DNA of 64,000 nucleotides from Isurus oxyrinchus (Eukaryota). Shown here piece by piece: positions 11,940 through 34,531 of the stretch. The notes beneath the pieces were generated by a model that made no database searches, was not told the origin of the DNA, and saw only the letters and a program-made list of their open reading frames with translations. Numbering within the stretch: the first letter of the stretch is position 1; the number at the start of each line of letters is the position of its first letter. Where the stretch lies: the NCBI GenBank assembly GCA_026770705.1, contig JANJGN010000026.1, positions 7,254,001 to 7,318,000 on the forward strand, in the 5' to 3' direction. Position numbers and translations under genes: made by a program.

Positions 11940-12060
11940 TCCCTTGAAGAACGCTCCATTCCACCAAAACAAACAAAAATAAAACGATCCCAGCAGGAAT
12001 TAATAAAGAAATCAACACATCTAATCAACTCCCTGATGCATGGCATCAGGTCTGGATATG
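11940..12060 (+). promoter_or_regulatory. Decayed promoter module of the receptor pseudogene (TAATCA followed by an O/E-like TCCCTGATG)
   Basis: TAATCA-ac-TCCCTGATG at 12022-12038, 76 bp before the ATG. The spacing matches the module of the intact paralogue (77 bp). Confidence 0.4.
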
Positions 12061-12809
12061 GAATCTTTCAGCTCATGCAGATTGTGCTAAAGCTTCTGAT
12101 ACATAATGCATGGATCACCGAAAGTCCCAGTGTTTGCCATTGCCTATCCCAACTTTTCAGCTATTGGGGTTCCAGGCAATGTGTTACCAGATTGGCGGGA
12201 AACATGGTGAGCTGTATCACTGTTTCCATTTACCAATAATGCTTCTTTATTTCACTAATATTAATTCTCCCATTTAATGGAACAATTTCTCCTCTACAGT
12301 GCTATGCTTTTGCATTTTAATGTAATAGATTATTCATATAAAGGCGAAATTCAACCCTTTTAAGATTATTAAATATTGAATGAAATGATGAAATGTATTA
12401 TCTTTTCGGCCATTATTTCTCCTCATTACTGAAAATATTTGTTGCTTTTATTAGTGCCAGTACTCACTTTTAACAGCATTCATTCTTCACATTTTCACTG
12501 CATTTCCACAGTTTATACTGTATCTTAGATATATTGTGTAATTGACACGGTTTCAATTGGTGAATTATTATGCTATTCTCATGGTTTCAAAGTCGATCTA
12601 TTGTTATAGTGACGTTGTTACTGTGAGACAATTATCACATTATTACCAATCTCTAATGCAGATTTATTCAGGTATTGAGATTCGGAGTGATAGAGTAATT
12701 TCCACATGTTATCAATTCATTGAGTGTATTGGACCATTGAGTGATTTCTGAATTGTTGTAATGAAATATTTTATTGAAGAAACATTATTCAGCATAAATG
12801 TTTGGCAGA

Positions 12810-13385
12810 AATATAGAAACAGAAAATAGGAGCAGTAGTTCGTCATTGGCCCGAGCCTGCTCCGCCATTCATTACGGTCAAGGCTGATCCTCTATATCAA
12901 TGCCTTACGCCTGTTTTCTGCCTTGAAGCCTTTAGTGTCCAGAAATCTATCTAATTCGTTCTTAAATACATTCAGTGACTTGGCCCCCACATCTTTCTTT
13001 GGTAGAGAATTCTGCAGGTTCATCACATTCTGAGGAATGACGTTTCTCCTCACTCAGTCTTAAATGGGCGACCCGGTACCCTGAGACTGTCACCCCTTGC
13101 TCCAGACACCCTAACCATGGGGAACATCCTCTCTGTATCTGGTCTGTCAAGCTCTGTCAGAATTTGATACATTTCGCTGAGATTCACTCTCATTGTTCTA
13201 AACTCCAGTGAATGCAGATATGTTCGACCCAATTTCTCCTCCGACGACAATACTGACATCACAGGAATCAGTCTGTGCTCCCTCTATAGCAAGTACATTC
13301 TTTCTGAGGCAAGAAGACCAAAACTGCATCCAACAGTTCAGCTGTGGTCTCACCCAGGCCCTGTGGAGCTGCAGGGAAACATTCC
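12810..13385 (-). mobile_element. CR1 LINE 3' fragment in the pseudogene intron
   Basis: ORF 13050-13262 (LHSLEFRTMRVNLSEMYQIL...RGDSLRV.GRPFKTE) is a typical CR1 ORF2 C-terminus. Confidence 0.85.
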
Positions 13386-13734
13386 ATGAACAATCATGTG
13401 AAATATGAGCAAAATTACTGTGACCATTTTATGAGTGCCCTGCATTTCCTCCAAAAGCACAGAGTGCAGTGTTTCAACTCTCAGCCTCTAACAATGTTCA
13501 GTTCCCCCGATTGACCTCTTCCAGGTTATTAGCTGCTGCCTGTTCTACAGTGCCTTTTGCTGTCTGGGTTTCCCTTTTGCCCTATTACCTGGCAATGTCC
13601 CGCATCTTCCATTCTTCATTACTTTTCTCCACATTGTGTTTCACCGCATAATTCGAGGTATCAGTCGCATGTGAGGCACACAGTTGTCATATCAGCATCT
13701 ACTATAGGACGAAGTTCGTGATCATTGCCAACGG

Positions 13735-13985
13735 TGCAGAGCAATAGAAGGTGCAAGGCCTTGTGGGAGGGGTCTATTTCCGAACTAGGCCTCAGTATCT
13801 GTCAGTTTCACTCGGTCAGATGGACTGAAAATTTTATGGTACCTGTCAAAAGAACTCACGGTTGCTACTCACCAATGTCCCTCCTCAAAGTGAGTAAAGA
13901 CAATGGTCTGATCTCTCCTTTCCGATCGGGGATTTATTGAGCAAGTTTAATGTCATATTTCCCATCAATTAATAATTCTACAATA
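13735..13985 (+). mobile_element. Possible very old Deu-domain-type SINE remnant
   Basis: Loose resemblance, from memory, to the shark SacSINE1-type body. Not verified by alignment. Confidence 0.3.
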
Positions 13986-15574
13986 GTTTAGGTGACGAGT
14001 GGGTTATTGACCTCAAATTTCTTGTAAATTTATAGGCTTATTGTTTATTGTTCAGTTGTCTATTATCTGAAAATGTTTTCTTTATATTTGCTTTTTCTTG
14101 TCTGACTTTAGACCCCACATTGAGTTCGCAGCATTTACATTTCATTCTTCTTCTCTGCTAGTTTTAACATTCCAATGTCATTTCTTTATCTTATCTTTTA
14201 TCTGGATAGTTATTTGAAGGAACAGGCACACGCAGAGAAAGTGATAATTATTCAAATTAGTAAGGCGTCTCAAACAGATAACAGATCCTGTAAAACGAAT
14301 AATTTTTCAGAGTCCTCCTGAACTTTTCTGTTCTCCCTCTTCCGTCACGCATTCCTACACTTTTTCTTTCTCATTCAGCATCTCGCTCTCTTTCTGTCCC
14401 TCTTACAGCTAAATTTGCAGTAATTGTGATCCTCTCGCGAGGAAGATGCGATCTCTCCAGATGTATCACTTACTACCTGGTGTCCATGGGCATGATAGAT
14501 CTTTTGCTTATTATCATTGCTGTAATATTACACTGGATGGTTGGGATTTATTACCCATTGAATTCCCTGTCCATCCCACCAATATGCAGGCTGCGTATTG
14601 CCGTAAGGCAAGCAGGCATAGACTGTTCTGCTTGGTTAGCAGTCTCTTTTATATTTGATCGATTTGTGGCCATTTGTTGCCCGAAGCTGAAAATAAGATA
14701 CTGCACCCAGAAAACAGCTCATCTGATTATAGGGACGGTCTGCACACTTAGCTGTGTAAGGAATACCTTCTTATATTTCATAGATGAAGCGTTGTAGATA
14801 ATTAACAGTGTACACTGGCACTGCACCATAAAAATAATCTTTTATATGTCACCTGCATGAGCTGCATTTCACTGGGCTCTCGCAATGTTAAACCCTTGCC
14901 TCCTTTTCATTTTGATTTTACTGCTCAATGCTTTGACCGTCAGACACATTCCAGCAGCCAGTCGAACATGCAGGAGACTCCGGGCCCAGAACAATATTGA
15001 GAAACAGCGGGACCTCTGGATGGAGAAGTGGAGAAAGTCCATTGTTTTACTCTTTGCCATTTCAGGCAGCTTCATCACATTATTTTTGGTGCATTTTATA
15101 ACAATCCTCTCTATTCGAGTTGCGAAAGTTACACATTTCTCAGGTTCCGATTCAACATTTTTTCCCGAGGAAGTTGGATATATGCCACTGTTTTAGAGTC
15201 CCTGCGTCAACCCATTTATTTATGCTGGGACCCAAAGTGAATTCAAAGCGGAGTTAACAAATGTGATCATATAACCAGTACATTTAATTGTTAAATGAGT
15301 TAAATAACGTGGACCTGGTTAATTCTAGGTTAGGTCGAGATTTTTCTTGCCCATGGTCACAAAAGGCCTGCTCTCCCAATCCGTCATCACTCCCTTTGGG
15401 ATTCTGAGCACTCTGTGAATTTAATAATGTATGAAGAAAGCGTAATTTATTTAGGTTTCTAACGAGTTCCCAATTGGTTTGCCATTCTATTCCCTGTGCT
15501 GTACCAACTCAGCCTTGTTATGGATCCAACAGCCTCGCGGGCTTTTGAGTCATCATGTTTTTTTTTAGTTTCTT

Positions 15575-15900
15575 TTATGAGATGTGGGCTTCACTGCCAG
15601 AACCAACATATTGTTCCCGCCTCTGAGTGAGTGGCCAACTGGCCCATTTCACGGGCAAGTTAAGAGTCATCCACATTCCTGTGTGTGTGTCATCAAGGAT
15701 AGCAGGTTTCATTCCCTGAAGGACCGTGGTGAACCAGATGACTTGTTAAGTGCGTTCGACAATAGCTTCATGCTTGCCGTCATTGAGAGGAGCTTTTAAT
15801 TTCAGATTTATTACTGGAAATTCAATCCCACGAGTAGTTGTGGTGGGAATTGAAACGATTCCCTGGTGAGTTAACTCGTTCTGTGGATTACTATTTCTAT
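15575..15900 (-). mobile_element. tRNA-headed SINE sharing its 5' and 3' ends with the Zenon-like LINE
   Basis: Matches 22117-22352 plus 22985-23090, and also 39990-40290. Confidence 0.7.
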
Positions 15901-16809
15901 GGCAATACCATTAAACCACCATTCGCAACCCCCATCTGGGCAGTAGGGAGATCAACCTCTACTATTGAAAACAAAGGCCAAACGTTTGATCAGGGGTGTT
16001 CATTATCACACCGCCCAACCTCAGCATTGATTGCATGTTGACGCTAGGAAATAGGAGGACATACATTTGTCCCACACTGTTCTCTGCTCACTGTTCCCTG
16101 TCCCACAGCCACACATCTCCCTCCATAACTATGGAAATGAAGGAAATGCTGGTTAAAAAACATAAAAGAACACATCTCGTTCACCTCCTTATCTTTCCAT
16201 TAATAAGGGTGACATCCCGAGTGAAATTCCAAATGAAAAATCATATTTAGCAATAGTGTGTAAATGGGTGCAGAGGGTTAATTAATAATTAACAATGCAA
16301 CAAGAAACAAACAACTAAAGATATCAAACTTGATGAGTGCTTCATCTTCGCTATTGACTGCCCAGTAATTTGCTGGTCGGCACCTTGACTGTCTCATGAG
16401 GCAATAAGAAGGTTTTATTAATTATTGATCACAACCAATCTTTATCAATTATGCAATAATCCGTCGAGAAGTTACACCAGGAAAACCCAGCGTTGGATAG
16501 CAGTATATCCCAATGGCATGGAATGAACTGCAGTTGTGCAATGGAAACCTGGTGTTGCATTCTTGGCGTACAAAGCATTGAGGGACATTCATGCATGACC
16601 CACCCGCAGTTCCATTTGCAATAGGTCTAACGCTGGGACACAGCCAGCAATTAATAAACATTATCCTGATACTCGCGAGCTGGTATGACACAAGGGTGCC
16701 AAATTTAAACAATTCATTTCCACGTAATGCCTTCATAAATCCCTCTAAATGCATGGTGCAGAAGGTAGAATGGGCCTTAACTAGCATTTCAAAACGGGCT
16801 AATCCCTAA

Positions 16810-18760: not shown

Positions 18761-18854
18761 TTGAGCATTGAGAAGTGTTGACGGGTTGATGTGTGTGGGT
18801 AGACTTTACAGCATGGAATCGATGGGCCGAGTGTCTTCCTTTGGTTCTGTAATC

Positions 18855-21300
18855 ATAGAATCACTGTATCACAGAAATGTCACGGTGTGGAAGGAGGGCA
18901 CTTTGGCCAGTACTAACTGCATTGACTCTCCGAATGAACAGTTCACCCAGTGCCATCCATATGCCTTCATTCTGCAATCACACACATTCTACCTTTTCGA
19001 ACAACTGTAATTCCCTTTAAAATGTCTCGATTGAATCAGCCGCCAGCACACCCCCAGGCAGAGCATTCCAGGTCTGAACCACTCACGGCGTGAAGAATGT
19101 TTTCCTGTTGCCGTTTTGCTTCTTTTGCCAATTCATTTAAATCTTTGCCCTCTCGTTCTCCAGCCTTCCACCAACGGGAGCAGGTTCTCCCTAAATATAC
19201 TGTCCATATCCCTCATGATTTTGAATACCTCTACCAAATTTCCTCTCAAACTTTTCTTCTCCAATGTAACCAGTCCCAAATATTCAAACCTATTTTTATC
19301 ATTTTAGTTGCTCATCCCTGGAACCACTCTCGTGAATCTCCAATGCGTTCCTATATATCTGAAAGTATGGCGTCCAGACCTGGACACAATATCTCAGCTG
19401 AGGCCAAACTAGTGTCATGGACAAGTTCAACATAACCTCATTTGCCTTGTAAGCCAAGCCATTACTGATGAATCCCAGGGTTTGTGTGCTTCATTAACCG
19501 ATACTCTCAAGCAGTGCTGCCATCTTCATTGGCGAATGCAAATTTTCACCAGCATTCCTCTTATGCTGCATCCCCTTCAGAATTGTATCCATTATTTTAT
19601 ATCATCTCTCTATGTCCTTCCTAACAAAAGGGTTCACTTCCCCTTTCTCCTCATTAATTTTCCTCTGCCACTTGAGCAGCCATTCCACCATACTAGAGAT
19701 GTCCTTTTTAACTTTCACAATATACTCATGCACGATGATTGTGCATCATCCGCATTTTTTGAAGTTATGCCCTGTATACACATGTACAGGTTATTAAGCA
19801 ACATCAGGAGCTGCACAGCTCCCAAAAGTGACCACCGGAGACCTCCAAATCAAACCTTCCCATAGCCCGATTAATATCCATCAACCACTATTGACTTGTT
19901 CGCTCTCACACAAGCAATTTCACATCCATTTGCCACGTTCCCTTTAATTCCAAGAGCTGTAACTTTTCCCACAAGTCTGTTGAACGCCAGCGTACGAAAT
20001 GCCTTTTGGAAGTCCATGTAAACCACATCAACGACACTGCCAGCATCAACATTTTCCATTAAGTTCTTCATTTTCGTTAAACAGTCACAACTTCTCAAAT
20101 TGATCTTCATTTTAGAGAAACAAGATTTTATATTAACAAATCCGTGCTTGCTTTCCTCAATTAACCACTATTTACCCATGTGAGTATTAATGCTTTTCCC
20201 AAGTACTATTTCTAGAATTTTCACATTTCTGAAGTTAAACTGATGGACCTGCAGTTGCTTGGCTAATTGTTTTTAAAAAAAAATGGTCAGCAAATGTGCA
20301 ATATTTGCAATTCTCAAGTTTTTTTGGAATCACACTTGGGTCTAAGGAAGACTAAACTATTATAGCCAGAGCCTCCACAATTAACACTATAATTTCCCAA
20401 AGGGTTGTTGGATGCACCACCTCCTGTTTTGGTGCTTTATCATCTTTACATACAGACAGCCTAACTAATATAAAAGCAAAAAACTGCGGATGCTGGAAAT
20501 CCAAAACAAAAACAAAAATACCTGGGAAAACTCAGCAAGTCTGGCAGCATCTGCGGAGAGGAACACAATTAACGCTTCGAGTCTGAATGACCCTTCAACA
20601 GAACAAAGTAAAAAGTAAAATTGGAAGAGAGTTGAAATATAAGCTGGTTTAAGTGGGGCGGGTGTTTGGGGCGGGTGGGACAGTAGATCCAGTGATAGAT
20701 GGTGATAACCAAAAGATGACACAGACAAAAGGACAAAGAGGTGTTGAAGGTGGTGATATTATCTAAGGAATGTGCTAATTAAGCTTAACTAATATCTCAC
20801 CTATTTCAAATTTAAATCCATACAGTATATTATGTACCTCCTCTTTCACTGTAGGTTGAGTAGCATCTTTTTGTCTTGGTAAAAACAGATGAGAAGGATC
20901 CAATTAATACCTCAGCCATTTCCCCTGTTACTGAACGTTAACCACCTTTTTGGGCCCGAATCAACTCTTCTCGTCCTTTGGCCATTTTTCCTTTTGCTAT
21001 TAAGATGTCTGTAGAAGCCTCGGAGATTCTATTTTCTGTTAGCTGCCAGTCTCTCTTTATACTGCCTATTTGTATCTCTTATTTGCTTTTTCGCTCCCCA
21101 ATGAGCCTTCTACGTTCAGTTCTGTTCTCCATTGTTTTTATCCACCTGATATCTGTCATAAAGGTGCTTATATTTCTTCCTCATGTTAATCACCATCAAT
21201 TTCTGTCATCTAGGGAGGTTTCTATTTGATTGCACTACCTTTCCCTTTCGACAGAATACACCTCCAATATGTAAATAATGTCTCTTGTTTAAGGTGGCCT
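18855..21300 (-). mobile_element. CR1 LINE, ORF2 RT region to 3' end, decayed
   Basis: ORF 19871-20110 reads VVDVVYMDFQKAF..RLVGKV.ALGIKGNV. CR1-type tail at ~18855-19100. Continues past the insert at 20472-20785. Confidence 0.85.
20472..20785. mobile_element. Penelope-like terminal repeat insertion inside the CR1 copy
   Basis: aaaagcaaaaaactgcggatgctggaaatcc...cgcttcgagtctgaatgacccttcaacag. Flanked by duplicated TAACTAATAT (20462-20471, 20786-20795). Confidence 0.75.
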
Positions 21301-22116
21301 CGCAATGTGATGTTATGAGTAGATATCATGCGATGATGAATTTAGTCACGCAGTAGAGCATTGCTGCCAGACCCTCAAGGCTAGACTCTGCACTTTGAAT
21401 TTCTTGTTCACCGAATCTAATTCCACCCTCATGCTGGATCTGCTTGCCTCATGGTCCACCTTGAAATAATCTCCACTCTCCTTTTGTCCAACTTCCTATC
21501 TGATGCAGTGGCTTTCAGTCCTTTTTAGAACATAATGATGGTTTGCGTGTTGGTGCACGCACAAATTCACTCACAATACCTGACAGTTATGTAATTGAAT
21601 GTAAGTTGGTAGCTGCTCATTTAATTAATTTATAAGTGTAATGAATTCTTGTATTAAAGTCACAGGGCAAGATTTCAGAATGTATCACAGCAACGTTGCA
21701 ACTGGCCAATATCATCGCACAGATAGAGCAAATGGAGAAGGCAAAATCACGTGGGACAGCAGGAAACGTTCAATGTAGAAAGGCCAGCTCGTCAGGATGT
21801 GTTGGGTGGTAAGTTATTGAGGGTACAATAGTGGAAATAGGGACGGCTCTGGAAGCAAGATTTTAACTTCCCAGACGGCCTAGGACCTGAAATGTTGCAA
21901 AGGTAAAGCTCATTTTTTTTAAGGGGAGAGGCATTAACCCAGCCATCCAGGTCAGACATTCTGATATCAATGGCAGTAAAAATTCGAGTGAGCAAAGTTC
22001 TGGAAACATAATGTGTTGGAACAACAAATCGATCAAATGGACTAGGGTTTGTTTAAAACAAAGATTGTGTGAAAGAATCTTCATCGAGAATTTCAATAAA
22101 ATGAAGGCACGGACTG

Positions 22117-23090
22117 GGGGGCAGTGGTAATGTCACTGGGCTAGTCATTGAGAGGATCAGGGCAATGCTCTGGGGACATGCGCTCAATCAATAAAAACCT
22201 GGAATTAAAAGCTCTTTTCAATAATAATGATCATGATGCCCTTGGCAACTGCCGTAAGAATCCATTTTTTTTACTTTGTCGTTCAGGGGAGGAAATCCGC
22301 CCTCCTCACCTGATCTCACCTGCATAGGACTCCAGACCCACAGCAATGCGGTTAACTATATAAATATTGTGGCGACAAGAGCAGGCCAGAGGCTGGGAAT
22401 AGTGCCACGAGTTACTCACCTCCTGACGCTCCAAAACCAGTCCAACATCCACAAGGTACAAGTCTTGATTGTGATGGAATACTCACCAATTGCCTGGATG
22501 AGTGCAGCTACCACAACACTCAACAAGCTTGACACCATCCAGAACAAAGCAGCCCACTTGTTCGGCACCAGTGCACAAAATAATCACTCCACCACCAATG
22601 CACAGTGGCAGAACTGTGTGCCTTATAGATGATGCACTGCCGGAATTCACTTAGTCTCCTTCGACAGCATCTTCCAAACCCACGACGACAACCAGCTAGA
22701 AAGACAACGGCAGCAGGTAGATGGGAACACATAGAAGTTCCCCTCCAAGTCACTCACCATCCCGAATTTGGAATATATTGCCGTTCCTTCACTGTCACTG
22801 GGTCAAAATCCTAGAACTCCTTTCCGAACAGCACAGTGGGTGTATCTACACCTCATGTCTGCAGCGGTTTAAGAGGGCAGCTCAACATTATCTTCTCAAG
22901 GTCAACTCTGGGTGGCCGAGAAATACTGGCCCAGGCAGCGAAGCCCATATCCCGTGAATGAATAATAAATTGAAAAATCCTAACTAACCCTCTGAAATGG
23001 CCTAGCAAGCCAAATAGTTCCCGGGCAATTAGGGACAGACAACAAATGTTGGCCTTGCCTTCGGCGTCCAAGTCCTATCAGAAATAAACA
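22117..23090 (+). mobile_element. tRNA-headed SINE split by a Zenon-like LINE 3' fragment (~22352-22985)
   Basis: SINE head gggcagtggtaatgtcactgg..., then LINE text (MEYSPIAWMSAATTTLNKLDTIQNKA), then the SINE resumes at ccctctgaaatggcctagc (~22988). TAACTA occurs at both junctions. Confidence 0.8.
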
Positions 23091-23099
23091 ATGTTAGAC

Positions 23100-23807: not shown

Positions 23808-26800
23808 TCACAGAATCACAGAACCACAGTGCAAAAGCAACCCTTCGGCCCATCGAGTCTGCACCGACACGTGAGAAACACCTGACCTACCTACTAATCC
23901 CATTTAAAAGCACTTGGCCCACAGCCTTGAATGTTATGACATGCCAAGTGGTCATCCAGGTACTTTTTAAAGGATGCCTCCACCACTCTACCAGACAATG
24001 CATTCCATAACGTAACCACACTCTGGGTAAAAAAAAAACCTTTTCCTCACGTACCCCCTAATCCGCCTACCCTCACCTTGAACTTGTGCCCCATTGTGTC
24101 TGACCCTTCAACTAAGGAGAGCAGATGTTCCTATCTACCCTGTCTATGCCCCTCCTAATCTTGTAGACCTCGATCAGGTTGCCCCTCAGTCTTCTCTGCT
24201 CCAACCTCTCTTCATAACTTAAATGTTTCATCCCAGGCAACATCCTGATGTATCTCCTCTGCACCCTCTTCAGTGCAATCACATCATTCCTATAATAGTA
24301 CTCCAGCTGTGGCCTCATCAAAGTTCTATACAACTCCAACATGACCTCCCTACTTTTGTAATCTATGTCTCGACTGATAAAGGTAAGTGTACCAAATGCC
24401 TTTTTCACCACCCAACTAACGTCCCTCTCTACCTTCAGAGATTTATGGACACACACGCCAAGGTCCCTTTGAATCTCAGAACTTCCTAGTGCCATGCCGT
24501 TCATTGAATACTTCCTTGTAAAATTATTCCTTCCAAAGTGCATCACCTCACAATTTTCAGGGTTAATTTCCATCTGCCTCTTATCTGCCCATTTGACCAT
24601 CCCGTCTATATCTTCCCGTAGCCCTAGACACTCAACCTCACTGTTAACTACCCAGCCAATCTTTGTGTCATCTGCAAACTTATTAATCCTACTCCCCATG
24701 TAGCCATCTATGTCGTGTATATAAATGACAAATAATAGATGACCGAGCACAGATCCCTGCGGTATGCCACAGGACACTGTCTTCCAGTCAGTAAAGCATC
24801 CTTCTATCATGACACTGGCTCCTACAACTAAGCCAACTTTGAATCCACCTTATCAAATTACCCTGTATCTCATGTGCATATGCCTTCTTTATAAGTCTCC
24901 CATGTGGGACCTTGTCAAAGGCTTTGCTGAAATCCATATAAACTACATCAACTACACAACCCTCGTCTACACACCTGGTCACCTCCTCAAAAATTTCAAT
25001 AAAATTTGTTAGGCATGACCTCCCTCTGACAAATCCATGTTGACTATCCCTGATTAAACCTTGACTCCCCAAGTGGAGATAGATACTCTCCTTCAGAACT
25101 TTCTCCGATAGTTTCCCTACCACTGACGTGAGACTCACTGGCCTTTAGTTCTCTGGCTTTTCAGTGCAACCCTTCTTAAATAGCGGAACTACATTAGCTG
25201 TTCTCCCATCATCTGCCCCCCCCCCCCCCCCCCGTGGCCAGTGAGGAATTAAAAATTCGGGTCAGAGCCCCTTGCCTCCCTCAGCAGTCTGGGGCACAAG
25301 TCATCCGGACCTGGAGATTTGTCACTCCCTATGTCAATTTGCTTAAGAACCTCGCAATCTCTCTCCCTGAGTTCAATAACTTCATCCTCATTCTCGTGGG
25401 TCAGACAGACGTGAAGTATTCATTTAACGCTCTAAAGATGTCCCCTGACTCCACCCATTTATTACCCCCTTGTTCCCTTATGGGCCCTACACTTTCCCTG
25501 TTTATCATCTTCCCATTGATATACTTATAGAATCTCTTGGGGATTTTCCTTACTTGTACCAGCCAGAGTTTTCTCATATCACCTCTTTGTTCTCCTAATT
25601 GCTTTCTTAAGCTCCAACCTCCAATAATGCCTCTGCTGATTTGCTTCCCTTGAAACTGCTAAAAGCCTCTCTTTTCCTTCTCATCGTAACCTGAATATCT
25701 CTGGTCATACATGGTTCTCTGGGCTTGTTACTCCATCCTATCAGCCTAGAGGGAACATGCTGAGCCCGTACCCTCCCAATTTCCTTTTTGAACACCCCTC
25801 ACTGTTCCTCTGTAGATTTCCCCAAAAGTATCTGTTCCCAGTCTACCTTGGCCAGATCCTGCCTTATTTTACTAAAATCCACTCTCCATCAATTTTGCAA
25901 ATTGTCAATCTCTTTGTCCATAACAAACCTAAAGTGAAGTATGTTGTGGTCGCTATCGCTAAAATGCTCTCCCACCAACACCTCAGTCATCTTCATTCCC
26001 CAGAATTAAGTCCAGCAATGCACCTTCCCTTGTTGGACCCTCTACATACTTACCAAAAAAGTTCTCCTGTATATATTTCATGAAATCCACTTCATTCAAG
26101 CCCTTAACACTGTGCCTACCCCAATTAATGTTGCGAAAGTTAAAATCACCTAATGTAATTACCAGATTGTTATTGTTTTTACACACCTCCACAAATTGTG
26201 CACATATTTGCTCCTCAATTTCCCGCTGCCTACCTGAAGGTATATAATAAATGCCTAAGAATATTATTCCCTCTTTTTTATTCCTAAGCTCTAACCACAA
26301 AGCTTCATTCGATGCCCCCTCCAAGATATCATCTCTCCTTACTGCAGTAACAGACTCCTTAACTAATAATGCAATGCCTCCTCCTCTTTAATCCCCTCCC
26401 CTGTCTCGCCTGAAGATTCTGTATCCGGGAATGTTGAGCTGCCAATCTTGCCCTTCCCTTAACCACATCTCAGTGATGGCTACTATATCGCAATTTCACG
26501 CGTCAATCCTCAACCTTTAATCGTCCATTTTACCTGTAATACTCCTGGCATTGAAGTAGAGGCCATCCAGCCTTGTCTTAATCCTTTGAAGCTTATTGCA
26601 GCTGTACTCCCTCTGAGTTGATTGTTTTATTCTATTGTTATGTGTCCCTATTCTGCTAATATTCTGTGTCCCCTCCCCCTGCTATATTAGTTTAAACAAC
26701 TCCCAAGAGCACTAGCAAAACCGCCTGCAAGGGTGTTAGTCCCGCTCTGCTTCAGATGTAGACTGTCCCGCTTGTACAGATTCCACCTTCCCCAGACACG

Positions 26801-27930
26801 GACCCAGTGATCCAGGAATCTAAAACCCTCCCACCTGCACCAACCCTTAAGCCACGTATTCATCTGTGCTATTCTCCTATTTCTGAGCTCGCTAGCACGT
26901 GCCACTGGGAGTGATTCACAGATGACAACCCAAGAGGTCTTGCTTTTTGTCTGCTGCCTAACTCCCTGAATTCTTGATGCAAGACCTCATCCCTCTTTCT
27001 ACCTATGTCGCTGGTAACAACATGTCCCATGATCTCTGCCTTATTACTCTGACATTTCAGGATGCCCTGCAGCCTTTCAGTGACCTCCCTGGCCCTTGCA
27101 CCTGGGAGGCAACGCACCATCCTGGAGTCACATTGACGGCCACATTAGCGTGTATCTGTTCCCCTGACTATAGAATCCCCTATTACTATTGCTCTTCCTT
27201 CCCTCTTGTACAGATAGGCTGCTTGTGTGCCAGAAGCTTGGCTCCAACCACACTCCCTGGAGGAACCAGCACCCTCATCAGCCTCCAAAACACAATAGCA
27301 ATTTGCGAGCGGGGCCCCATGGGACTCCTGAGCTACCTGCCTTTTCTCTTGGACTGCCTGGTGGTGTCCCATTCCCTTCCTTCCTCAAGTCCCTTCATCT
27401 GCGGTATGACGACTTATTTGAATGTGGTAACCACGATGCTCTCAGACTCACGGATGCTCCACAGTGTCCCCAGCTGCTGTTCCAGCTCTGAAAGTCATGC
27501 TTCCAGCAGCTGCAGCTGGACACATTTCCTGCACACAGGCTGATCCTGGGCACTGGAAATATCCCCGCCTTCCAACAGGGAGCATTATGAGCACACCACA
27601 GCTTTGAGCGCTCCTGCCATGACTTATCCCTTTAAATTAAAACTTTTAAGTCAATTACTCTAGGGTCCTTCTTTCCTGATCCTCGTTTCTGTAAATATAC
27701 AAACTGTAAACCACAAAATACCTTAAACTATAAGCAATTAAAGTTGTAAATACCTTACCCACTCCTTACCAGTGATTCCTTTACCTTGTAGCCTCTCCTG
27801 CTGCAACATACTCTGAAGATTTAAGATGTTGGATAGCAAGGAAAAAATACAAAGAGAACCTCGTCTCCTGTGCACCTAATTCCCGCTTTGCGTGATATTC
27901 CGAATACCCACTCTGGCTGTGCCCCACTCA
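23808..27930 (-). mobile_element. Near full-length CR1 LINE with ORF1 (zinc finger + SGNH esterase) and ORF2 (APE endonuclease + RT), disrupted
   Basis: ORF1 starts at the ATG at 27620 (MAGALKAVVC..C...VCRKC) and contains IVIGDSIVRG, RCLPGAR and DSLHL. ORF2 contains LGDFNF, LLDLILGNE, QHGFVRGRSCLTN, YMDFSKAFDKVPH, GIPQGSVLG and KFADDTK, with stops and frameshifts. Confidence 0.95.
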
Positions 27931-28096
27931 GTATGTGCTCTATCTCTTGTTCGTGTGCAAGCACGCTGTAGAGTTATCTTCTTGTAGGTTTTGTATTTTT
28001 ATGGGGCTCTTGCTCTGTGTTTCTCTGCCTTTACCCTGTCTCTTATTCAGCTGGCTCTTGTCATGGATGGGTTGTCCCCGCCATACAGAGACAAAC

Positions 28097-31000
28097 AGCG
28101 GGATTTCCCAATGGTGGTGGGCATGACAGGTGGCGTGTGCAGAAAATATGCTGCAATCAGCATCACGGCAGCAAGAAGACACGTCGCGATCGTCCACTCA
28201 GCCCGAAGATGGCAGACCGCGTTTTCCATCGTCAGTCGGCCGGGCGCTCATTGTTATACATCAGCATATAATTAAAAGGCCAGTGTGCCCGGCCCTTGGG
28301 ACTGTGCCGGATCATCCACCCACGTTGGAAGCAAAGCACAGGGACGTATTTCACAACAGCACACAGGAGACATGTACTTGGCAGCCTTCATTTTGGGGGA
28401 TAAAAATAAGTGAGTGGCTCCGTTTTCAAGAGCTCCCCTGTTACTTACAGATCTCAGGGGCCACAGGGAGGGGCTGGGACAGGCGGAGGAAACTGATGTC
28501 TGGCCCCGGAGGCGATGGCTCAGGGGCCTGTGTTTCCGGGGGGAATGTGCTGGCCAGGCTCGGAAGTGACTGCTGACGAGATGGGGTGTGGGCCGCTGGG
28601 GGAGTGGAGGCGGGGGTGTGTCCGCGGTCAAGTGCTGGTCAGCCTGGGAGGCGGTTGCTGAGGAGAGAGGGGTCAAATGCTGTCCTGGCGTTGCAAACCT
28701 CGCCCAGGTAATTGAGCTGGAGGGCAGGGCATGTGAGGGGAGCGGCCTTGCATTAGAAATTGGCCATGCTTCCGCAACTGAGATCGATCAGGAGCAGCCA
28801 CAGTGACATGATTGAGGTAATGTTGATAGCCTGCAAGCATTGCAGAGGTAGCAAAGGACCACCAAGCGCTCCATACATTACCACCACCACCCCACCAACA
28901 CCCCCCCACCACCCACCCCACACCCACACCCAACCCAGCATAGATTTTGAGTCAGCCACCACTTTATTGCACCGTAGAGCAGTTGGACTGCACACGTTTT
29001 ACAATATCCTCGCCAATGCTGGCCATGTGGCAGTCACTCCTAGAGGCGCTTGCAGCCCCTTGCAATCTCAGCATCCTGGTTTGGGCCAGTGTATCCCATG
29101 GCACAGGTTAACTGGGCAGTCAGGCAGCACACTCATTGCTGACCTTCCGAGGGGTGACCAGCACTTTCTGGGAAGCGTTAAGAGACAGTCACACAGGGAC
29201 AGGAAAAGTGCTAATTACAATCATGAAAACCACGTCTCTCTTTTTCATGCTGCAGGAGGACCACGTCAGGGTCATGGATCCTGGTGACCTAGCTGTATGT
29301 ATACTGGCCAATAGAGACCATGGACAGCAGTGGGGAGAGCGCCTCAGAGTCTTGGCTGCGCAAAGGCAGGAGCAACAGCCTCAAGAAGAAAGGGAAGCAG
29401 GTGCTCCCGTATGCAATGCCCAGGAGCGAAGGTGAACCATGACCGGTTGTCGCCTAGCCCAGGGTGTTTGGATGCTGCGTGCCATTCCTGCAGCTGACTG
29501 AGAACCAGTGTCACCAACAATAGCAAATGTCTGGGGACCCGGTGGCTCACATTTGCCACTTATTGCACAACTTGGAACCAAGGGTTTATGGAGGGCATCA
29601 ACTGACAGTGACTGTGAAAGTGACCATGGCACTCAATGTCTATGCTAGTGGTCCGTTTCAGGGGTCCTCTGGTGACCCCTGTGGGATTTCAATATCCTCC
29701 ACTCAGAAATGCATCCATAAGGTGATGGATGCCAGCTTCTCCATGGCAACACAACTTTGTACATTTTGCCTGGACCGGGCAGATTGGATTTGGCATGATC
29801 TCAGGATTCCCACAGGTGCAGGGTGTTATTAACTGCACTCATGTGGTGCTCAGGTCTCCATCATTACACCCGGTGGACATCACCGACCACAAGGGCTTCC
29901 ACTCATTGAATGTGCAGCTCGTACGCGGCCACCAGAAACACGTCCTGCAGGTGTGCTCACAGCTTCCAGAGAGTGTGGACAACGCCCACTCCCTGAGTTG
30001 CTCTCAGATCCCTGAAGTCTTCCAGGGTCCACAGAGGCTGCAAGGTTGGCTCATTGGGGACAAGGTCTTCCCACAGAGCCTGTGGCTGATAATACCTGTG
30101 TGCTGGCCTCAGACCGCAGCAGACCGGCGCTATAATGAGGCTCATGCAGCAGCTCGCAACTTGGTGGAGCAGACCATTGGGATGCTGAAGATGCGGTTCC
30201 GGTGCCTGGGCTGGTCTGGTGCAGCCCTGAAATACAGTCCACAGAGGGTGTCACATATCATTTTCATCTGCTGCACCCTTTACAACCTGGTGCTCCAACG
30301 GGAGAGAGGAGCTGGCAGAGCAGTTGATGGAGGAGCTGCACGCCTCCAATGAAGAAGTCGCTGACATGGATGAGGATGAGGGGCATTACTGGTGAAGATG
30401 ACGAGGATGAGGCTTTCACAATGGCCATACGAGGCAGTCGCGCTGGGGAGGCCCTCATAGCTGGCAGATTTTTGGCCTATGATGACAACATGCAGTGAGG
30501 TGACCCCTTAGATCCTCACATCACAGTTGTTGAAGTTTGACTCGAGTCTGGTTTATGGCAGCAACAACGTCTGCGATAATGTTCCTGTCATGGAGCCAGT
30601 GTGGGCCCTAATACTTGCTCGATCGCAGGAGTACGATGACAACATGTAGTCAGGACACTCCTTAGGTCTTCACATAGCCTCTGAGAATGTCTGACTGCTG
30701 TCTGGCCGAGGGCAGCCCACTTGTGCTACAAGATCAGGGACATCTAGAGACGCAGCCATGGAAACTTATATGCATCTGAAGCTGTAAACACCTTCAGCAC
30801 CTCAGGCCTGCAGGGGCTGGTGCACTGTATCACTGGTAGCAGATGCTGTCGTGATGGGGGCCAGCCCCACTTAAAAGGTGCTGAGAACACACAGAGACAA
30901 TCAATGAATGCTGTTGTGCCAGCTCGCTACACTCTTGAAGCAATGACCAGCACCGTCGAGGGGCAGATATCAATAATGTTTCGAGGGAGTGTGAGGCTGG

Positions 31001-31700
31001 ACCATCATGGCAGGCTTAAGGCTGCACAGAGCACAGGGAAGAGACTCTGGACTGAGACACCTGCCTTTTACCTTGTGCAAAAAGGTTTCACAATAGAGTG
31101 ACGAGAACAGTGCTCATTAGAAAAGGAAGCCACAGGCAGGGAGGCATTCTTAGGAATTTATTGACAATAGTGAACAGTATGTAAAGGTGATCAACACCCG
31201 TGGCCGGGCTGTGAAACTACTTTTATCTAACTTTCCTAACCCTGCCATTCTGTCTTGGTGCTCCCCGGACATCCACAGCAGAGCTGGAGGCATCCTGCTG
31301 ACTATGGCACCCTGACTGTGATGACTTTGGCGGGCTTCCCCTGGAGTGCCAAGGCTTGGAGGGCCTGCTTTTAGGGTCCTGCTGTGCGGCAGTGGCACCC
31401 TCCTCAGCCTAAAAATCTGGAGCTGCAGTGTTCACAGGAAGAGTGGGTCTGGATAGGCCAGTCGCTCCCAGAGTCTGCTGGGTAGATGGCCCAGAATCTG
31501 CATCTGCTGACCCTCCTCCCTATGGGTGCCTGAGGGCCGTGAGCGGAAGGGGTAGCTGGAGGATGCTGGAGCTGCCCAGCACCACTCCCGCTTACAGACA
31601 GTTGGAGGCCAACTGTGGCTTCGGCAATGGGGTTATACCCCCACAGCAGTGCAGGAGGGATGTCCTGGACCATGTCCGTGACTGTTGCTAACCTCAAACA
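28097..31700. mobile_element. PIF/Harbinger DNA transposon, decayed and probably truncated on the right
   Basis: GC-rich island containing a HARBI1-like transposase (+). A convergent minus-strand Pro/Ser-rich frame (31150-31700) with AATAAA at 31157-31162 (minus) may be the end of the partner gene. Ends are approximate and no TIR pair was confirmed. Confidence 0.75.
29274..30498 (+). pseudogene. HARBI1-like DDE transposase, frameshifted
   Basis: VKVTMALNVYASGPFQ, GFPQVQGVINCTHV, KGFHSLNVQLV, GWLIGDK, YNEAHAAARNLVEQTIGMLKMRFRCL, CCTLYNL, and an acidic tail. The catalytic Asp positions are altered (IDCTH>INCTH). Confidence 0.9.
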
Positions 31701-32293
31701 TTGATTTAAGCAATGTCAGTTGCATTCCCTAATGTATTTAATTTTTTTTGGATCGACATGTTCCTTATCTCTTCGAGAGAGACATGTGTATTCCATTCTG
31801 ACACAAACAGTTCATTCGGATAACTTCAAGATATGTTTGCAACAAGTAAACTCTTTTAAAACTTGATATAATTTCCCCATGGCTCCACTACCTTGGATTC
31901 ATTCTATATTGTACCTTATTTCCAAATGCCCCACTTTACTGTCCGACAGAGCAGAGTAGCCAAAAAAGGAAGATTTTGCTTAACAATAAAGCTAGATGTT
32001 AGTTTTTTTTTCTGAGCTGGGTCTTGGCAATTAGCCTTATGTTGGTGATCAAATAATCTTACACAGCACAAACTTCCATTTTTGAAATAATCTATTTCAG
32101 TTTCAATTGTTTTATTTAATATAAAATAACAATAACGGGATCATACTGTACACCCAGTACGTTTCATTATGGGGCGTACCAGTGCCATGGGGAACATTTA
32201 ATGCCATCTGCTCATGTGCATGGGACTGGCAACAGCTTCACAATGTTGTTTTTTTTTTCAATTAGTGTAATTCGTGGAAAAGATGAAACCATT

Positions 32294-32375
32294 TAATTGT
32301 CTCCCTGGAGCGAGGCAACTAGTATAAATTCCATAATTTTCAATTGACTCCTTGGAGCCAGACACGAAATATAAA
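32294..32375 (+). promoter_or_regulatory. Putative promoter: duplicated 47-bp module of homeodomain-like site + O/E(EBF)-like site + TATAAA
   Basis: TAATTG 32294, TCCCTGGAG 32302, TATAAA 32323; then CAATTG 32341, TCCTTGGAG 32349, TATAAA 32370. The ATG is at 32426. Confidence 0.55.
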
Positions 32376-32425
32376 CGCGACAATATTCGATTTTAAAGGG
32401 AACACACTCCGAGCTTCATCTCGAG

Positions 32426-32495
32426 ATGCACGCCGCACCAAAAGGTCTTGCCTTTGCCATTTACTATCACTTACTAGCAGTTATTGCTGTTCCAG
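32426..32495 (+). CDS. GPR139-like class A GPCR, exon 1 (MHAAPKGLAFAIYYHLLAVIAVP+G)
   Basis: ATG, 70 nt, then a CAG|GTAACG donor. A phase-1 join restores VP-ANL in TM1. Homologous to 12106-12175. Missed by the ORF track. Confidence 0.88.
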
Positions 32496-32909
32496 GTAAC
32501 GTGTTTTGCATCGTTAGCAGTTTTTGGAATCATTGCTTCGCAGCACCACTGTTCTCACTTAATTGTAGTGTTAATCGCTGGTACTAATATCCCGCCTGTC
32601 TTTTAATGGGATAATTTCTCCCATTCAATGGGAAAATTGCTTAATTTTAATTAGGATAATTAATCCCTTTGCACAGTTTAATGGCATTAATTATCCATGT
32701 AAACAATATCATTTTACTGCTTATGGACATAATTGCCCGTCATTACAGGTGTGCTTTGGAACTGCAATGACGCCATTTCTCCCCTGTACAGGCATTTATT
32801 TTCAATTGACGATACAATTCCTCACCTTTAAAGGCTATATTATCTTCCATTTACCAGAAAAAATCCATTCTTTTTAATGTACACTTTCTAGCATTTAGCT
32901 CTACTACTA

Positions 32910-33050
32910 GATTTGACTGAGGTGGAGGATTGCATCCAGTTCTCGGCGCAGCCCTTTTGGAAAGCTGTGAAGTCATTGGGGTGAGTGCAGGAAAGATTCC
33001 AGGGAATAGTTTCGCGGATTAGGTCTTCAGTTCAGAGAAGAAATCCAACT
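32910..33050 (+). mobile_element. Small CR1 RT C-terminal remnant in the receptor intron
   Basis: Decayed equivalent of LEYCIQFW.P..RK.V..LE.VQ.RF. Confidence 0.5.
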
Positions 33051-33623
33051 AAGCCCCAGCAAGAATATATGAGATGCTCTATTTGGTGCTGAACTAACTT
33101 TGTTACGAATGCTTCAAATGGTTAAGAATCAGTAGTCCAGGTTGCTTTCATTTCCCATGCACCGGGCTTATTTCCATTTAAATAATATTATAATTGTCCC
33201 CATGTGAAGCAATTTGCACTTGTCTATACCGAATGCAATTTTCTGACTTTCCGTCCATCTGTTCGATATAATATGTTCCTTGACAATTTCCGGCAACTTG
33301 AACTGTCATTGTCTTTGTACATTTCAACACATCGAATCGGAGAATGATAGATTCGATTTCTCATAACTGAGTTGCAAGTTCACAAAGTTGCAAGTTCAAT
33401 TATAAAGTAGATCCTGTAGTCTTCCTGACAGTACTGTGCAGTATAGAGAAAGGCGTGCAACTTAGAAGTGAACTTAATCCAGTGGCACATAAGGCCATCA
33501 AGCAGAAATGTTCTTCTTTCTCTCTGTGTAACTATTGCTAAGTGAATGTTTCCCACATTTTCGGTTGTACCACAAAGTCCATTCATTGCTTATTCACTCG
33601 CTGTGTTTCTCTGTGTTCCACAG

Positions 33624-34531
33624 CTAATTTGGCAGTGATCGTGATCCTATCTCAAGGACGATGCGGTCTCTCCAAATGTATTACTTATTACCTGGTATCC
33701 ATGGCTATGACGGATCTCCTTGTAATTATGACCTCTGTGATATTAAACCGGATTGTTAGTATGTATTTCCCATTTAGCTTCCTGTCCATCACTCCTGTAT
33801 GTAGCCTTAGTTTTGTACTAATTTATGGAATCAGAGATTGTTCTGTGGGTGTAACTGTTGCATTCACCTTTGATAGATTTTTAGCTATTTGCTGCCCGAA
33901 ACTGAAAAATAAATTTTGCAACGAGAAAGTAGCTGCCCTGGTTATAGGCTCTGCTTGTGTTTTTGGCTGTGTGAGAAATATTCCATGGTACTTTGTTTAT
34001 GAGCCTATTTTTATAATTAACAATGTACCCTGTTTCTGCAATGTAAAATTAATATTTTATACATCACCACTATGGGCCGCATTTGATTGGATTCTCGCCA
34101 TTTTAACCCCGTGGCTTCCGTTAGTTGTTATTCTGTTGCTCAATGCTCTGACGGTCAGACACATTCTCCATGTAAATAGAGCCCGCAGGAGACTCCGGGC
34201 CCAGAACAATGGAGAGGGTCAAAGTGACCCAGAAATGGAGAGGCGGAAAAAATCCATTGTTTTACTCTTCACCATCTCGGGCAGTTTCATCCTATTGTAT
34301 TTGTTATATTTTATAAATGTCCTTTATGTCCGCATTGCAAATATTACTTATTTCTCAGGTTCAGGCTCCAGTCAATCAACATTTCTTCTGGAGGAAAGTG
34401 GATACATGCTTCAGTTCTTGAGTTCCTGTATAAACCCGTTTATATACGCAGGGACCCAGAGTAAGTTCAGAGATGAGTTAAAGAATGGAGTGAAATATCC
34501 ACTGAGGCTATTTGCTGCAACATTTAAATGA
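33624..34531 (+). CDS. GPR139-like class A GPCR, exon 2 (spliced protein 325 aa, intact)
   Basis: Pyrimidine tract plus CAG acceptor ending at 33623. Hydrophobic TM segments with AMTDLL (TM2), FTFDRFLAIC (TM3), LLNALTVRHI (TM5) and CINPFIY (TM7). AATAAA at 34614. Confidence 0.95.

What the first reader, a model, noticed from the sequence alone, without database searches (positions are those of the whole stretch)
12106..34531. Tandem GPR139-like receptor array undergoing birth and death: candidate lineage-specific chemosensory family
Seen: two same-strand paralogues ~20 kb apart with identical architecture (70-nt exon 1, phase-1 intron in TM1 at VP|ANL), one intact and one dead, in transposon- and satellite-rich DNA. 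Known: mammalian GPR139 and GPR142 are single-copy receptors for aromatic amino acids, and from memory GPR139 has an intron at the equivalent LP|ANI position. Inference: tandem duplication, pseudogenisation, a tiny N-terminus and olfactory-type promoter motifs suggest an expanded amino-acid/peptide sensing repertoire distinct from OR/TAAR/V1R/V2R.
Basis: partly seen in the sequence, partly recalled or inferred. Interest (0 to 1): 0.75.

Follow-up and report, generated by a model that had tools for sequence, protein, structure and literature searches.

The report
Large overlooked shark receptor gene family
These two genes, one intact and one broken, belong to a family of cell-surface receptors that sharks and rays carry in dozens of varied copies and that looks like a repertoire for detecting many different chemicals, although where in the body it works is not yet known.

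Summary
Observation confirmed: two + strand class A GPCR genes lie 20.3 kb apart, each with a 70-nt exon 1 and a phase-1 intron before N1.50. Copy 2 is intact (325 aa). Copy 1 has five premature stops and a GC donor. The DNA is elasmobranch. The family is large: 77 of the 120 best hits are distinct horn-shark paralogues, 53 on one 59.5-Mb sequence, against 20-62 known olfactory receptor genes per cartilaginous fish. These are not GPR139 orthologues (human GPR139 E=2.8e-4) but a GPR139-clan branch that is apparently single-copy in amphibians and sturgeon. The two copies are old paralogues, not sisters (p-AU 1.6e-5), so this is no recent tandem duplication. Pocket positions vary 1.4-2.2x more than other helix positions among paralogues, and less in single-copy relatives. 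GPR139's R6.51/N7.39 anchor is lost, so Trp/Phe sensing is doubtful. Copy 2's promoter has a duplicated homeodomain-Ebf-TATA module spaced like the mouse Lhx2/Ebf composite (modest significance). No expression or ligand data were reachable. Ten literature searches found no description. Best reading: an unrecognised chemosensory repertoire (about 0.5); immune or somatosensory use are the main rivals.

The parts
12106..12175 (+). Copy 1 (pseudogene) exon 1, 70 nt: N-terminus and first half of TM1; followed by a non-canonical GC donor
   Evidence: homologous to copy 2 exon 1 and the first ~350 nt of its intron
12176..14408 (+). Copy 1 phase-1 intron, 2233 nt
14409..15307 (+). Copy 1 exon 2: rest of the 7TM; premature stops at 14795, 14858, 15194, 15272, 15296; N1.50K, P5.50L and other conserved sites decayed
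12006..12045 (+). Copy 1 upstream block homologous to the copy 2 promoter module; degenerate homeodomain/Ebf-like site at 12022 (10 of 14 positions)
   Evidence: local score reached by 35 of 2000 shuffles and 0 of 1939 genomic controls
32294..32311 (+). Copy 2 promoter module A: TAATTG homeodomain site, 2 nt, imperfect Ebf (O/E) site; TATA-like site downstream at -103
   Evidence: 12 of 14 positions; 4 of 84,564 positions score this high
32341..32375 (+). Copy 2 promoter module B: 47-bp-period duplicate of module A (34 of 50 nt identical), ending in TATAAA at -56 from the ATG
32426..32495 (+). Copy 2 (intact) exon 1, 70 nt, GT donor
   Evidence: matches N-termini of shark homologues
32496..33623 (+). 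Copy 2 phase-1 intron, 1128 nt
33624..34531 (+). Copy 2 exon 2; with exon 1 encodes a 325-aa class A GPCR (N1.50, D2.50, C3.25, DRF, ECL2 beta-hairpin with Cys, P5.50, NPFIY, helix 8)
   Evidence: (model of exon 2, mean pLDDT 78.2)

Best explanation
The locus is part of a cluster of an elasmobranch-expanded class A GPCR family on a side branch of the GPR139/GPR142 clan. SHOWN: the gene structure; a large paralogue repertoire in sharks and a ray; a mix of cross-species orthologous subclades and species-specific blooms plus a pseudogene (birth-and-death); a conserved scaffold with a diversified ligand pocket; apparently single-copy relatives in amphibians and sturgeon that keep a GPR139-like pocket. 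INFERRED mechanism: an ancestral receptor for an aromatic amino acid or peptide was duplicated in clusters. The copies kept the cytoplasmic G-protein face, lost the R6.51/N7.39 anchor and diversified the pocket. Each copy now detects different water-borne small molecules or peptides in a sparse subset of sensory neurons. These are most likely the microvillous Go/TRPC2-positive olfactory neurons described in the catshark nose, chosen through homeodomain (Lhx2-type) plus Ebf promoter modules and signalling through Gq/Go-PLC. Copy 2 is a working member; copy 1 is a long-dead member of a different subfamily. Odds: expanded birth-and-death family about 0.97; not the GPR139 orthologue about 0.95; detection of external chemicals by sensory cells about 0.5; specifically olfactory neurons about 0.35.
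For: Size: 2237 of 4769 candidates at E<=1e-5, of which only the best 120 were listed. 119 of 120 carry elasmobranch names (12 species); 77 of 120 are Heterodontus, 53 of them on one 59,489,666-bp sequence (tallied by hand). They are distinct genes: pairwise core identity 0.61-0.96, 76 clusters at 95% and 69 at 90%; 77 of 77 have a complete exon-2 core without X. Known olfactory repertoires of cartilaginous fishes are 20-62 genes (PMC10869828 passage). Pocket diversification: among the 77 paralogues, 33 pocket vs 169 other TM positions give entropy ratio 1.89 (p 1e-5) and BLOSUM ratio 2.19 (p 1e-6). Against only the 70 other extracellular-half positions the ratios are 1.44 (p 0.014) and 1.70 (p 0.002). 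With 19 published GPR139 site residues the ratio is 1.61 (p 0.034). The same tests give ratios 0.30-0.34 in 19 amphibian/sturgeon relatives and 0.63-0.80 in 33 members of the other single-copy lineage. Purifying selection on the scaffold: copy 1 vs copy 2 dN/dS 0.28 over 308 codons, despite one being dead. Short N-terminus without a sequon (0 of 57). Promoter: the same order, orientation and 2-nt spacing as the mouse Greek Island Lhx2/Ebf composite probe (PMC5608512 supplement 7); 2 of the 4 top-scoring sites among 84,564 positions lie in the 300 bp before copy 2; the block is conserved in copy 1. Catshark olfactory neurons are all Go/TRPC2-positive microvillous cells, and the V2R co-receptor labels only 5.94 cells per mm (PMC10116579); my inference is that this leaves room for another family. 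A 'probable GPR139'-labelled gene and srw expansions are enriched in a snail chemosensory organ (PMC10638732 passage), a loose parallel.
Against: No expression or ligand data at all. The catshark top-50 'brain & olfactory epithelium' list contained no GPCR (PMC11979771 passage); this is weak, since V2Rs were absent too. The promoter evidence is post hoc and thin: 2 matches vs 0.74 expected, 17 of 100 shuffles; 3 vs 2.24, 39 of 100; 12 of 825 other 300-bp windows also hold a 12/14 site. The strict Ebf palindrome is absent from both promoters, and 0 of 18 extended gene models convincingly matched either promoter. Ebf and homeodomain factors also act in B cells and many neurons (own knowledge). 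The 33-position pocket list is recalled and was fixed after seeing the conservation table. The deep-family contrast weakens in the extracellular control (1.13, p 0.057; 1.22, p 0.03). Pocket variability is also expected of immune sensors or relaxed constraint. No tree with true GPR139/GPR142 could be built, and the family profile scores TRHR (5.6e-14) and GPR139 (1.2e-13) about equally.
Confidence: 0.5

Rival explanations
1. Immune sensing repertoire: the family is expressed on leukocytes, mast-like cells or B cells and detects microbial, parasite or damage-derived peptides, like mammalian FPR or MRGPR expansions.
For: Birth-and-death with a variable pocket is equally typical of immune receptors (own knowledge). 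Ebf sites are also B-cell elements (own knowledge). The ECL2 beta-hairpin resembles peptide receptors. Cartilaginous fishes lack MAS1 and related receptors (PMC8455134 passage), leaving that niche open.
Against: The homeodomain site sits directly next to the Ebf-like site at the olfactory composite spacing. The closest named mammalian relative, GPR139, is reported mainly from CNS regions (PMC7318219 passage).
Confidence: 0.2
2. Somatosensory or diffuse chemical sense: the receptors work in skin or gill solitary chemosensory cells, taste buds, or trigeminal and dorsal-root neurons, as a functional analogue of MRGPRs rather than as olfactory receptors.
For: The same family features. The MAS1 family is absent in sharks. 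GPR139 turns up in mammalian sensory-ganglion papers (search listings only). About 0.15 of the best explanation's 0.5 is this reading.
Against: No direct data. The promoter module points more to olfactory neurons, though weakly.
Confidence: 0.15
3. Internal endocrine, gut or reproductive receptors: nutrient or peptide sensing in enteroendocrine cells like GPR142, or gamete and gonadal peptide signalling like sex-peptide receptors.
For: GPR142 is a Trp receptor of pancreatic beta cells (abstract start in listing). The GPR139 clan is related to MIP/sex-peptide and FMRFamide receptors (PMC12208981 passage; Atlas neighbours). Catshark V2Rs are also expressed in testis and rectal gland.
Against: An endogenous ligand normally fixes the pocket, as seen in both single-copy sister lineages (ratios 0.30-0.80). 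It does not explain at least 77 divergent copies.
Confidence: 0.1
4. Neutral copy-number drift: a dispensable orphan amplified by unequal crossing-over in repeat-rich DNA, with no repertoire function.
For: Transposon- and satellite-rich setting, and one of the two local copies is dead.
Against: 77 of 77 listed horn-shark models have intact cores, though protein collections exclude pseudogenes. Subclades are kept across shark orders and a ray. dN/dS is 0.28. Variation is concentrated in the pocket rather than spread evenly.
Confidence: 0.05

Closest known systems
GPR139 / GPR142 (mammalian Trp/Phe-responsive orphan class A GPCRs)
   Same: Nearest named mammalian clan. TM1 aligns closely (VP|ANL vs LP|ANI), both genes have two exons, N5.58 is shared, and aromatic residues are kept at 3.33 and 6.48.
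   Different: Very distant: phmmer E 2.8e-4, whereas zebrafish GPR139 is 70% identical to human. Many copies instead of one. R244(6.51) and N271(7.39) are not kept: copy 2 has Y and Y; N7.39 is in 0 of 77 horn-shark paralogues and R6.51 is not among the four commonest residues. P6.50 is mostly lost.
Single-copy amphibian/sturgeon orphan (P0237 Pleurodeles, P0390 Xenopus, P0409 Acipenser; auto-named 'probable GPR139')
   Same: Falls in one 99%-supported clade with the shark expansion; same 24-26-residue N-terminus.
   Different: One entry per species in the 24 hits. The pocket is highly conserved and GPR139-like (F3.33 19/19, W6.48 18/19, K6.51 19/19, N7.39 19/19).
Single-copy gnathostome orphan P0230 clade (coelacanth, sharks, sturgeon, teleosts, amphibians, turtles, squamates); possibly the GPR210A/B orphans placed beside GPR139/142 in PMC6504862 (identity not tested)
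   Same: Profile-profile E 7.6e-50. Same intron position, judged from fragment starts. Its profile finds human GPR139 first in the PDB at E 4.7e-28, next family 2e-15.
   Different: A separate 99% clade in which sharks have their own orthologue (P0271, P0274, P0278), so the expansion is its paralogue. The pocket is conserved (R6.51 33/33).
Vertebrate chemoreceptor families OR, TAAR, V1R/ORA, V2R/OlfC, T1R, T2R
   Same: Works like them in genomic behaviour: clusters, pseudogenes, variable pocket, short N-terminus (as in OR, TAAR and V1R), and a homeodomain plus O/E-like promoter.
   Different: No match to their specific Pfam families (only 7tm_1). No D3.32 amine anchor. Has a coding intron in TM1. 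Not counted among the six families surveyed in PMC10869828.
Invertebrate Srw / FMRFamide / MIP-receptor-related expansions; mammalian MRGPR and FPR expansions
   Same: Peptide-type class A receptors recruited into expanded sensing repertoires. Atlas neighbours include FMRFamide-receptor-like and Srw-bearing clusters.
   Different: Independent expansions; Pfam Srw was not matched by 10 of 10 family proteins scanned. The MRGPR/FPR comparison is an analogy from own knowledge.

Membership tests
Class A (rhodopsin-like) GPCR | 7tm_1 domain, seven helices, N1.50, D2.50, C3.25-ECL2 Cys, D/E-R-x, P5.50, NPxxY | tested here: met
   Pfam E 2.1e-23; model with the helices, ECL2 hairpin and helix 8; motifs
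GPR139 orthologue | High conservation to human GPR139 (70% even in zebrafish) | tested here: not met
   phmmer E 2.8e-4, rank 32 of 36 PDB hits; benchmark from PMC7318219
GPR139 orthologue | Single copy per genome | tested here: not met
   77 horn-shark paralogues among 120 listed hits
GPR139 orthologue | Trp/Phe site F3.33, H5x43, W6.48, R6.51, N7x38 | tested here: not met
   Copy 2 has Y, L, Y, Y, Y (mapped through the alignment; residues from PMC5430874)
GPR139 orthologue | Intron at the LP|ANI position | not testable with these tools
GPR139/GPR142 clan (broad homology group) | GPR139 is the nearest named receptor by profile search | tested here: met
   Sister-lineage profile: GPR139 4.7e-28 vs next 2.1e-15, linked to the family at 7.6e-50; the family's own profile ties TRHR and GPR139
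GPR139/GPR142 clan (broad homology group) | Monophyly with GPR139 and GPR142 in a tree | not testable with these tools
   No true GPR139/GPR142 sequence was returned as a usable protein; trees lack them
GPR139/GPR142 clan (broad homology group) | Closest fold is the GPR139 structure | tested here: inconclusive
   Foldseek ranks 7VUI 12th among near-tied peptide receptors; VIA Z 23.2-25.0 across the 50 shown
OR / V1R / T2R / V2R / T1R | Family-specific Pfam domains | tested here: not met
   Only 7tm_1 at E<=0.01 for copy 2; none of these families in 10 of 10 relatives at E<=0.1
TAAR | Aminergic Asp at 3.32 | tested here: not met
   Ile in copy 2; N40, I16, S8, Y3 commonest of 77; feature recalled
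Chemosensory receptor repertoire (functional class) | Large clustered multigene family with lineage-specific gains and pseudogenes | tested here: met
Chemosensory receptor repertoire (functional class) | Ligand pocket more variable than scaffold | tested here: met
   (protein variability only; no site-wise dN/dS)
Chemosensory receptor repertoire (functional class) | Homeodomain plus O/E promoter elements enriched across members | tested here: inconclusive
   Present in copy 2, degenerate in copy 1, modest statistics; other promoters unavailable
Chemosensory receptor repertoire (functional class) | Sparse expression in sensory neurons | not testable with these tools
   No expression data; catshark atlas supplement unreadable
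Chemosensory receptor repertoire (functional class) | Activation by external chemicals | not testable with these tools
   Needs heterologous ligand screens

The most novel reading that the evidence does not exclude
Sharks and rays have a further olfactory receptor family, derived from the GPR139 clan and larger than OR, TAAR, V1R and V2R combined. It is expressed sparsely in microvillous olfactory neurons and controlled by the same Lhx2/Ebf logic that bony vertebrates use for OR genes. This would resolve the paradox of large shark noses with tiny known receptor repertoires.
Probability: 0.35. Interest if true: 0.93.

Novelty: new variant of a known kind. Interest (0 to 1): 0.78.

Why it matters
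The papers read describe cartilaginous fishes as poor in GPCRs (PMC8455134) and as having the smallest olfactory repertoires among the vertebrate groups surveyed (mean 43.8 genes; PMC10869828), despite a reputation for keen smell. At least 77 intact paralogues of one uncounted class A family in a single shark genome, hidden under automatic labels such as 'probable GPR139', challenge that picture whatever the tissue. If they are olfactory, vertebrates recruited a further GPCR lineage into smell, and existing shark tissue RNA-seq makes this directly testable. The single-copy amphibian and sturgeon relatives with a GPR139-like pocket give a handle on the ancestral ligand.

Tried and rejected
Recent tandem duplication of copy 1 from copy 2: rejected (AU test on 28 rows, log-likelihood 51.7 lower, p 1.6e-5; the same test on 124 rows did not finish). 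True GPR139 orthology: rejected. More copies or fragments in the window: none by tblastn or family HMM. Other host genes: 0 among 89 stop-free frames of 80 aa or more in 1150-43600 apart from transposon domains (5 of 89 had Pfam hits: RT twice, endonuclease, GDSL-like esterase, DDE transposase; 3 of the 92 frames, all from the receptor copies, were left out). No Rfam hit in 1-43600 and no tRNA. Structure search does not separate GPR139 from other peptide receptors: no verdict. Promoter conservation sought through N-terminally extended gene models: 18 tested against each promoter, best 0.028 of controls for one, nothing convincing. Window-wide motif counts were not significant. Cluster membership and taxa of the unnamed 50%-representatives could not be looked up, so most 'deep family' rows have no species. 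The profile search of basal members scored only the 7991 candidates sharing most words and returned 24 hits, so absence from teleosts, amniotes, lungfish or chimaeras is not shown. Literature: ten searches with GPR139/GPR142/'receptor 139' plus shark, cartilaginous, elasmobranch, lamprey, olfactory and expansion terms listed no paper on this family. Full-text term searches of PMC11979771, PMC10620051 and bioRxiv 10.64898/2026.08.31.747588 had 0 GPR139 mentions. All 24 supplements of PMC8455134 had 0. The library lacks most subscription papers, and the supplement of PMC11979771 (tissue expression) was unreadable, so prior description or expression data there cannot be excluded.

Full report
1. 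Observation. The window is repeat-rich vertebrate DNA; its last 20 kb is a G-rich 23-bp satellite. Two class A GPCR genes lie on the + strand with start codons 20,320 bp apart. Each has a 70-nt first exon and a phase-1 intron that splits the Ala codon just before N1.50. Copy 2 (32426-32495, 33624-34531) gives an open 325-aa protein (Pfam 7tm_1 E 2.1e-23; model of exon 2 with mean pLDDT 78.2, an ECL2 beta-hairpin and helix 8). Copy 1 (12106-12175, 14409-15307) is 70% identical (679 of 969 nt), has no frameshift, five premature stops and a GC donor, and departs at 20 of 95 conserved sites against 6 of 95 for copy 2. No third copy exists in the window.

2. What the genes are. A search with copy 2 found 2237 proteins at E<=1e-5 among 4769 candidates; only the best 120 were listed, so the taxa of the other 2117 are unseen. 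Of the 120, 119 are named from 12 sharks and rays and one is unnamed; the best are 77% identical, so the window is elasmobranch DNA. They are distinct genes (core identity 0.61-0.96; 76 clusters at 95%, 69 at 90%), all with complete cores, and a lower bound because only the nearest hits were shown. The exhaustive search found 109 further 50%-identity representatives at E<=1e-30 (168 at 1e-10, 742 at 1e-3), showing much deeper diversity, but these have no names. Sources label the family mostly 'probable GPR139', also 'GPR15-like', 'capa receptor-like', 'TRH receptor-like', 'SIFamide' and 'sex peptide receptor-like'.

3. Relationship to GPR139. Human GPR139 is a weak hit for copy 2 (E 2.8e-4) and ties with TRHR for the family profile (1.2e-13 vs 5.6e-14), while real orthologues are 70-96% identical to human (PMC7318219 passage). 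Two apparently single-copy sister lineages turned up. One is an amphibian/sturgeon gene (22 of the 24 hits) that lies inside a 99% clade with the expansion. The other is a gnathostome-wide orphan in which sharks have their own orthologue; two of its models are annotated as TMEM183A isoforms, suggesting linkage. Its profile picks GPR139 clearly (4.7e-28, next 2.1e-15) and matches the family at 7.6e-50; it may be the GPR210 orphan of PMC6504862 (passage; not tested). The TM1 intron position is shared by all these lineages, judged from where mis-predicted models and exon-2 fragments begin. So the family belongs to the GPR139 clan by profile chaining, but no tree with true GPR139/GPR142 could be built, and fold searches do not discriminate.

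4. Birth and death. In a tree of 124 rows (119 named hits, 3 outgroups, 2 window copies), species-specific blooms (a 31-member horn-shark-only clade, 99%) sit beside subclades spanning several shark orders and a ray. Copy 2 groups with whale shark P0001 and white shark P0003; copy 1 falls in another clade (98%). Forcing them together is rejected (p-AU 1.6e-5 on 28 rows chosen from that tree). The pair is therefore an old cluster remnant, not a recent tandem duplicate. Because a ray sequence nests among shark subclades, the expansion probably began before the shark-ray split (over 270 My, figure from PMC11979771); this rests on SH-aLRT 89-93 only. Pairwise dN/dS is 0.28 over 308 codons.

5. Ligand pocket. 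Using Ballesteros-Weinstein anchors (TM4 anchor approximate) and a recalled list of 33 class A pocket positions, fixed after I had seen, pocket positions among the 77 paralogues are 1.9-2.2 times as variable as 169 other TM positions (p about 1e-5 to 1e-6). They are 1.4-1.7 times as variable as 70 other extracellular-half positions (p 0.014, 0.002), and 19 published GPR139 site residues give 1.6 (p 0.034). In 48 deep representatives the effect is 1.5-1.6 overall but 1.13-1.22 (p 0.057, 0.03) in the extracellular control. The single-copy lineages show the reverse: 0.30-0.34 (p<=0.02) in 19 amphibian/sturgeon proteins and 0.63-0.80 (p 0.01-0.19) in 33 of the other lineage. Of GPR139's Trp/Phe residues (PMC5430874 passages), aromatic 3.33 and 6.48 persist. 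H5x43 is kept in 46 of 77, N7.39 in 0 of 77, and R6.51 is replaced (F27, L19, Y11, H5 commonest). The amphibian/sturgeon gene keeps F, W, K and N. Inference: the ancestor bound an aromatic amino acid or peptide, and the shark copies moved on to varied ligands.

6. Promoter. Copy 2 has TAATTG at -132, followed after 2 nt by TCCCTGGAGC, a 47-bp-period duplicate at -85, and TATAAA at -103 and -56; the transcription start is unknown. Order, orientation and spacing equal those of the Sfaktiria Lhx2/Ebf composite probe, whose spacing matters for binding (PMC5608512 passages and supplement 7). With a pattern fixed from two published probes, after I had noticed the likeness, 4 of 84,564 positions score 12 of 14; two are in copy 2's 300-bp promoter and one in its intron. 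However, 12 of 825 other overlapping 300-bp windows also hold such a site. The block is the best-conserved upstream stretch in copy 1 (35 of 2000 shuffles, 0 of 1939 genomic controls). Against this: the Ebf half-site is imperfect, the strict palindrome is absent, window-wide counts are not significant and no third promoter could be examined. It is a lead, not proof.

7. Mechanism and rivals. Most likely each intact copy is a G-protein-coupled sensor of a different external compound in scattered sensory cells (0.5 overall; 0.35 olfactory neurons). Catshark olfactory neurons are all microvillous, Go- and TRPC2-positive, with 34 V2Rs and 4-9 genes in each other family; labelled densities are 0.45-5.94 cells per mm per probe (PMC10116579 passages and sections 7-8). 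That many neurons lack an assigned receptor is my inference; total neuron density was not in what I read. G-protein coupling was not tested; GPR139 is Gq-coupled (listing). Rivals: immune sensing (0.2), somatosensory or diffuse chemical sense (0.15, overlapping the main reading), internal endocrine or reproductive use (0.1), neutral drift (0.05).

8. Novelty. The proteins are in public annotations, but ten searches of the held library listed no paper on them. What I saw of each paper: passages of PMC8455134 (plus a search of 24 supplements), PMC11979771, PMC10620051, PMC6504862, PMC12208981, PMC5430874, PMC7318219, PMC10869828, PMC10638732 and bioRxiv 10.64898/2026.08.31.747588; passages and two sections of PMC10116579; passages and supplements 2 and 7 of PMC5608512; PMC5818035 had no hit for the terms. 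The unreadable supplement of PMC11979771 and subscription papers may bear on both expression and priority. Verdict: a real and large elasmobranch expansion of a GPR139-clan side branch, a new variant of a known kind; interest 0.78, or 0.93 if olfactory.

Noticed in passing
window 43538-63980: 20-kb G-rich satellite of a 23-bp unit (about 899 copies, 72% matches, higher-order periods 46, 68 and 91; GC skew +0.66), running to the window end; possibly subtelomeric (inference).
   Followed up: no
window 1-1149, 42238-42533, 35901-36088: Further tandem arrays: 35-bp unit x33, 25-bp unit x12, and an ATCT microsatellite.
   Followed up: no
window 24115-27000 (- strand): Decayed LINE with RT (RVT_1), endonuclease and a GDSL-like esterase frame, an arrangement typical of CR1-type elements (type recalled).
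   Followed up: partly
window 29726-30349 (+ strand): DDE_Tnp_4 (PIF/Harbinger-type) transposase remnant about 2 kb upstream of copy 2.
   Followed up: partly
window 10730-11860, 37246-38381, 22358-22969, 3672-3903: Copies of one interspersed repeat (68-74% identical; looks like a LINE ORF2 end, no Pfam hit); one copy ends about 250 bp upstream of the dead gene and may have truncated its distal promoter.
   Followed up: partly
window 1930-2162, 20471-20603, 40859-40957, 8646-8781: Short interspersed repeat family present in both orientations (71-85% identity), SINE- or MITE-like; no tRNA or Rfam match.
   Followed up: no
window 40298-40754 and 42900-43452: Local duplication of about 450 bp (76-81% identity) just before the satellite.
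   Followed up: no
window 12176-12530 vs 32496-32840: The first ~350 nt of the two introns still align (59% over 433 columns including exon 1) although the genes are old paralogues; a 12/14 composite-like site also lies in the copy 2 intron at 33191.
   Followed up: no
proteins P0237, P0390-P0410: An apparently single-copy orphan in frogs, salamanders, caecilians and sturgeon with S1.50 and N2.50 but a GPR139-like pocket (F3.33, W6.48, K6.51, N7.39): a candidate non-mammalian aromatic amino-acid or peptide receptor.
   Followed up: partly
proteins P0230, P0271-P0388: A second conserved orphan mislabelled 'probable GPR139' in fish, amphibians, turtles and squamates; no mammal or bird among the 120 of 145 hits listed; two models are fused with TMEM183A.
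   Followed up: partly
family alignment, ECL3: An N-glycosylation sequon sits in ECL3 in 66 of 77 paralogues and in the first 14 residues in 0 of 57, unusual for class A receptors.
   Followed up: no
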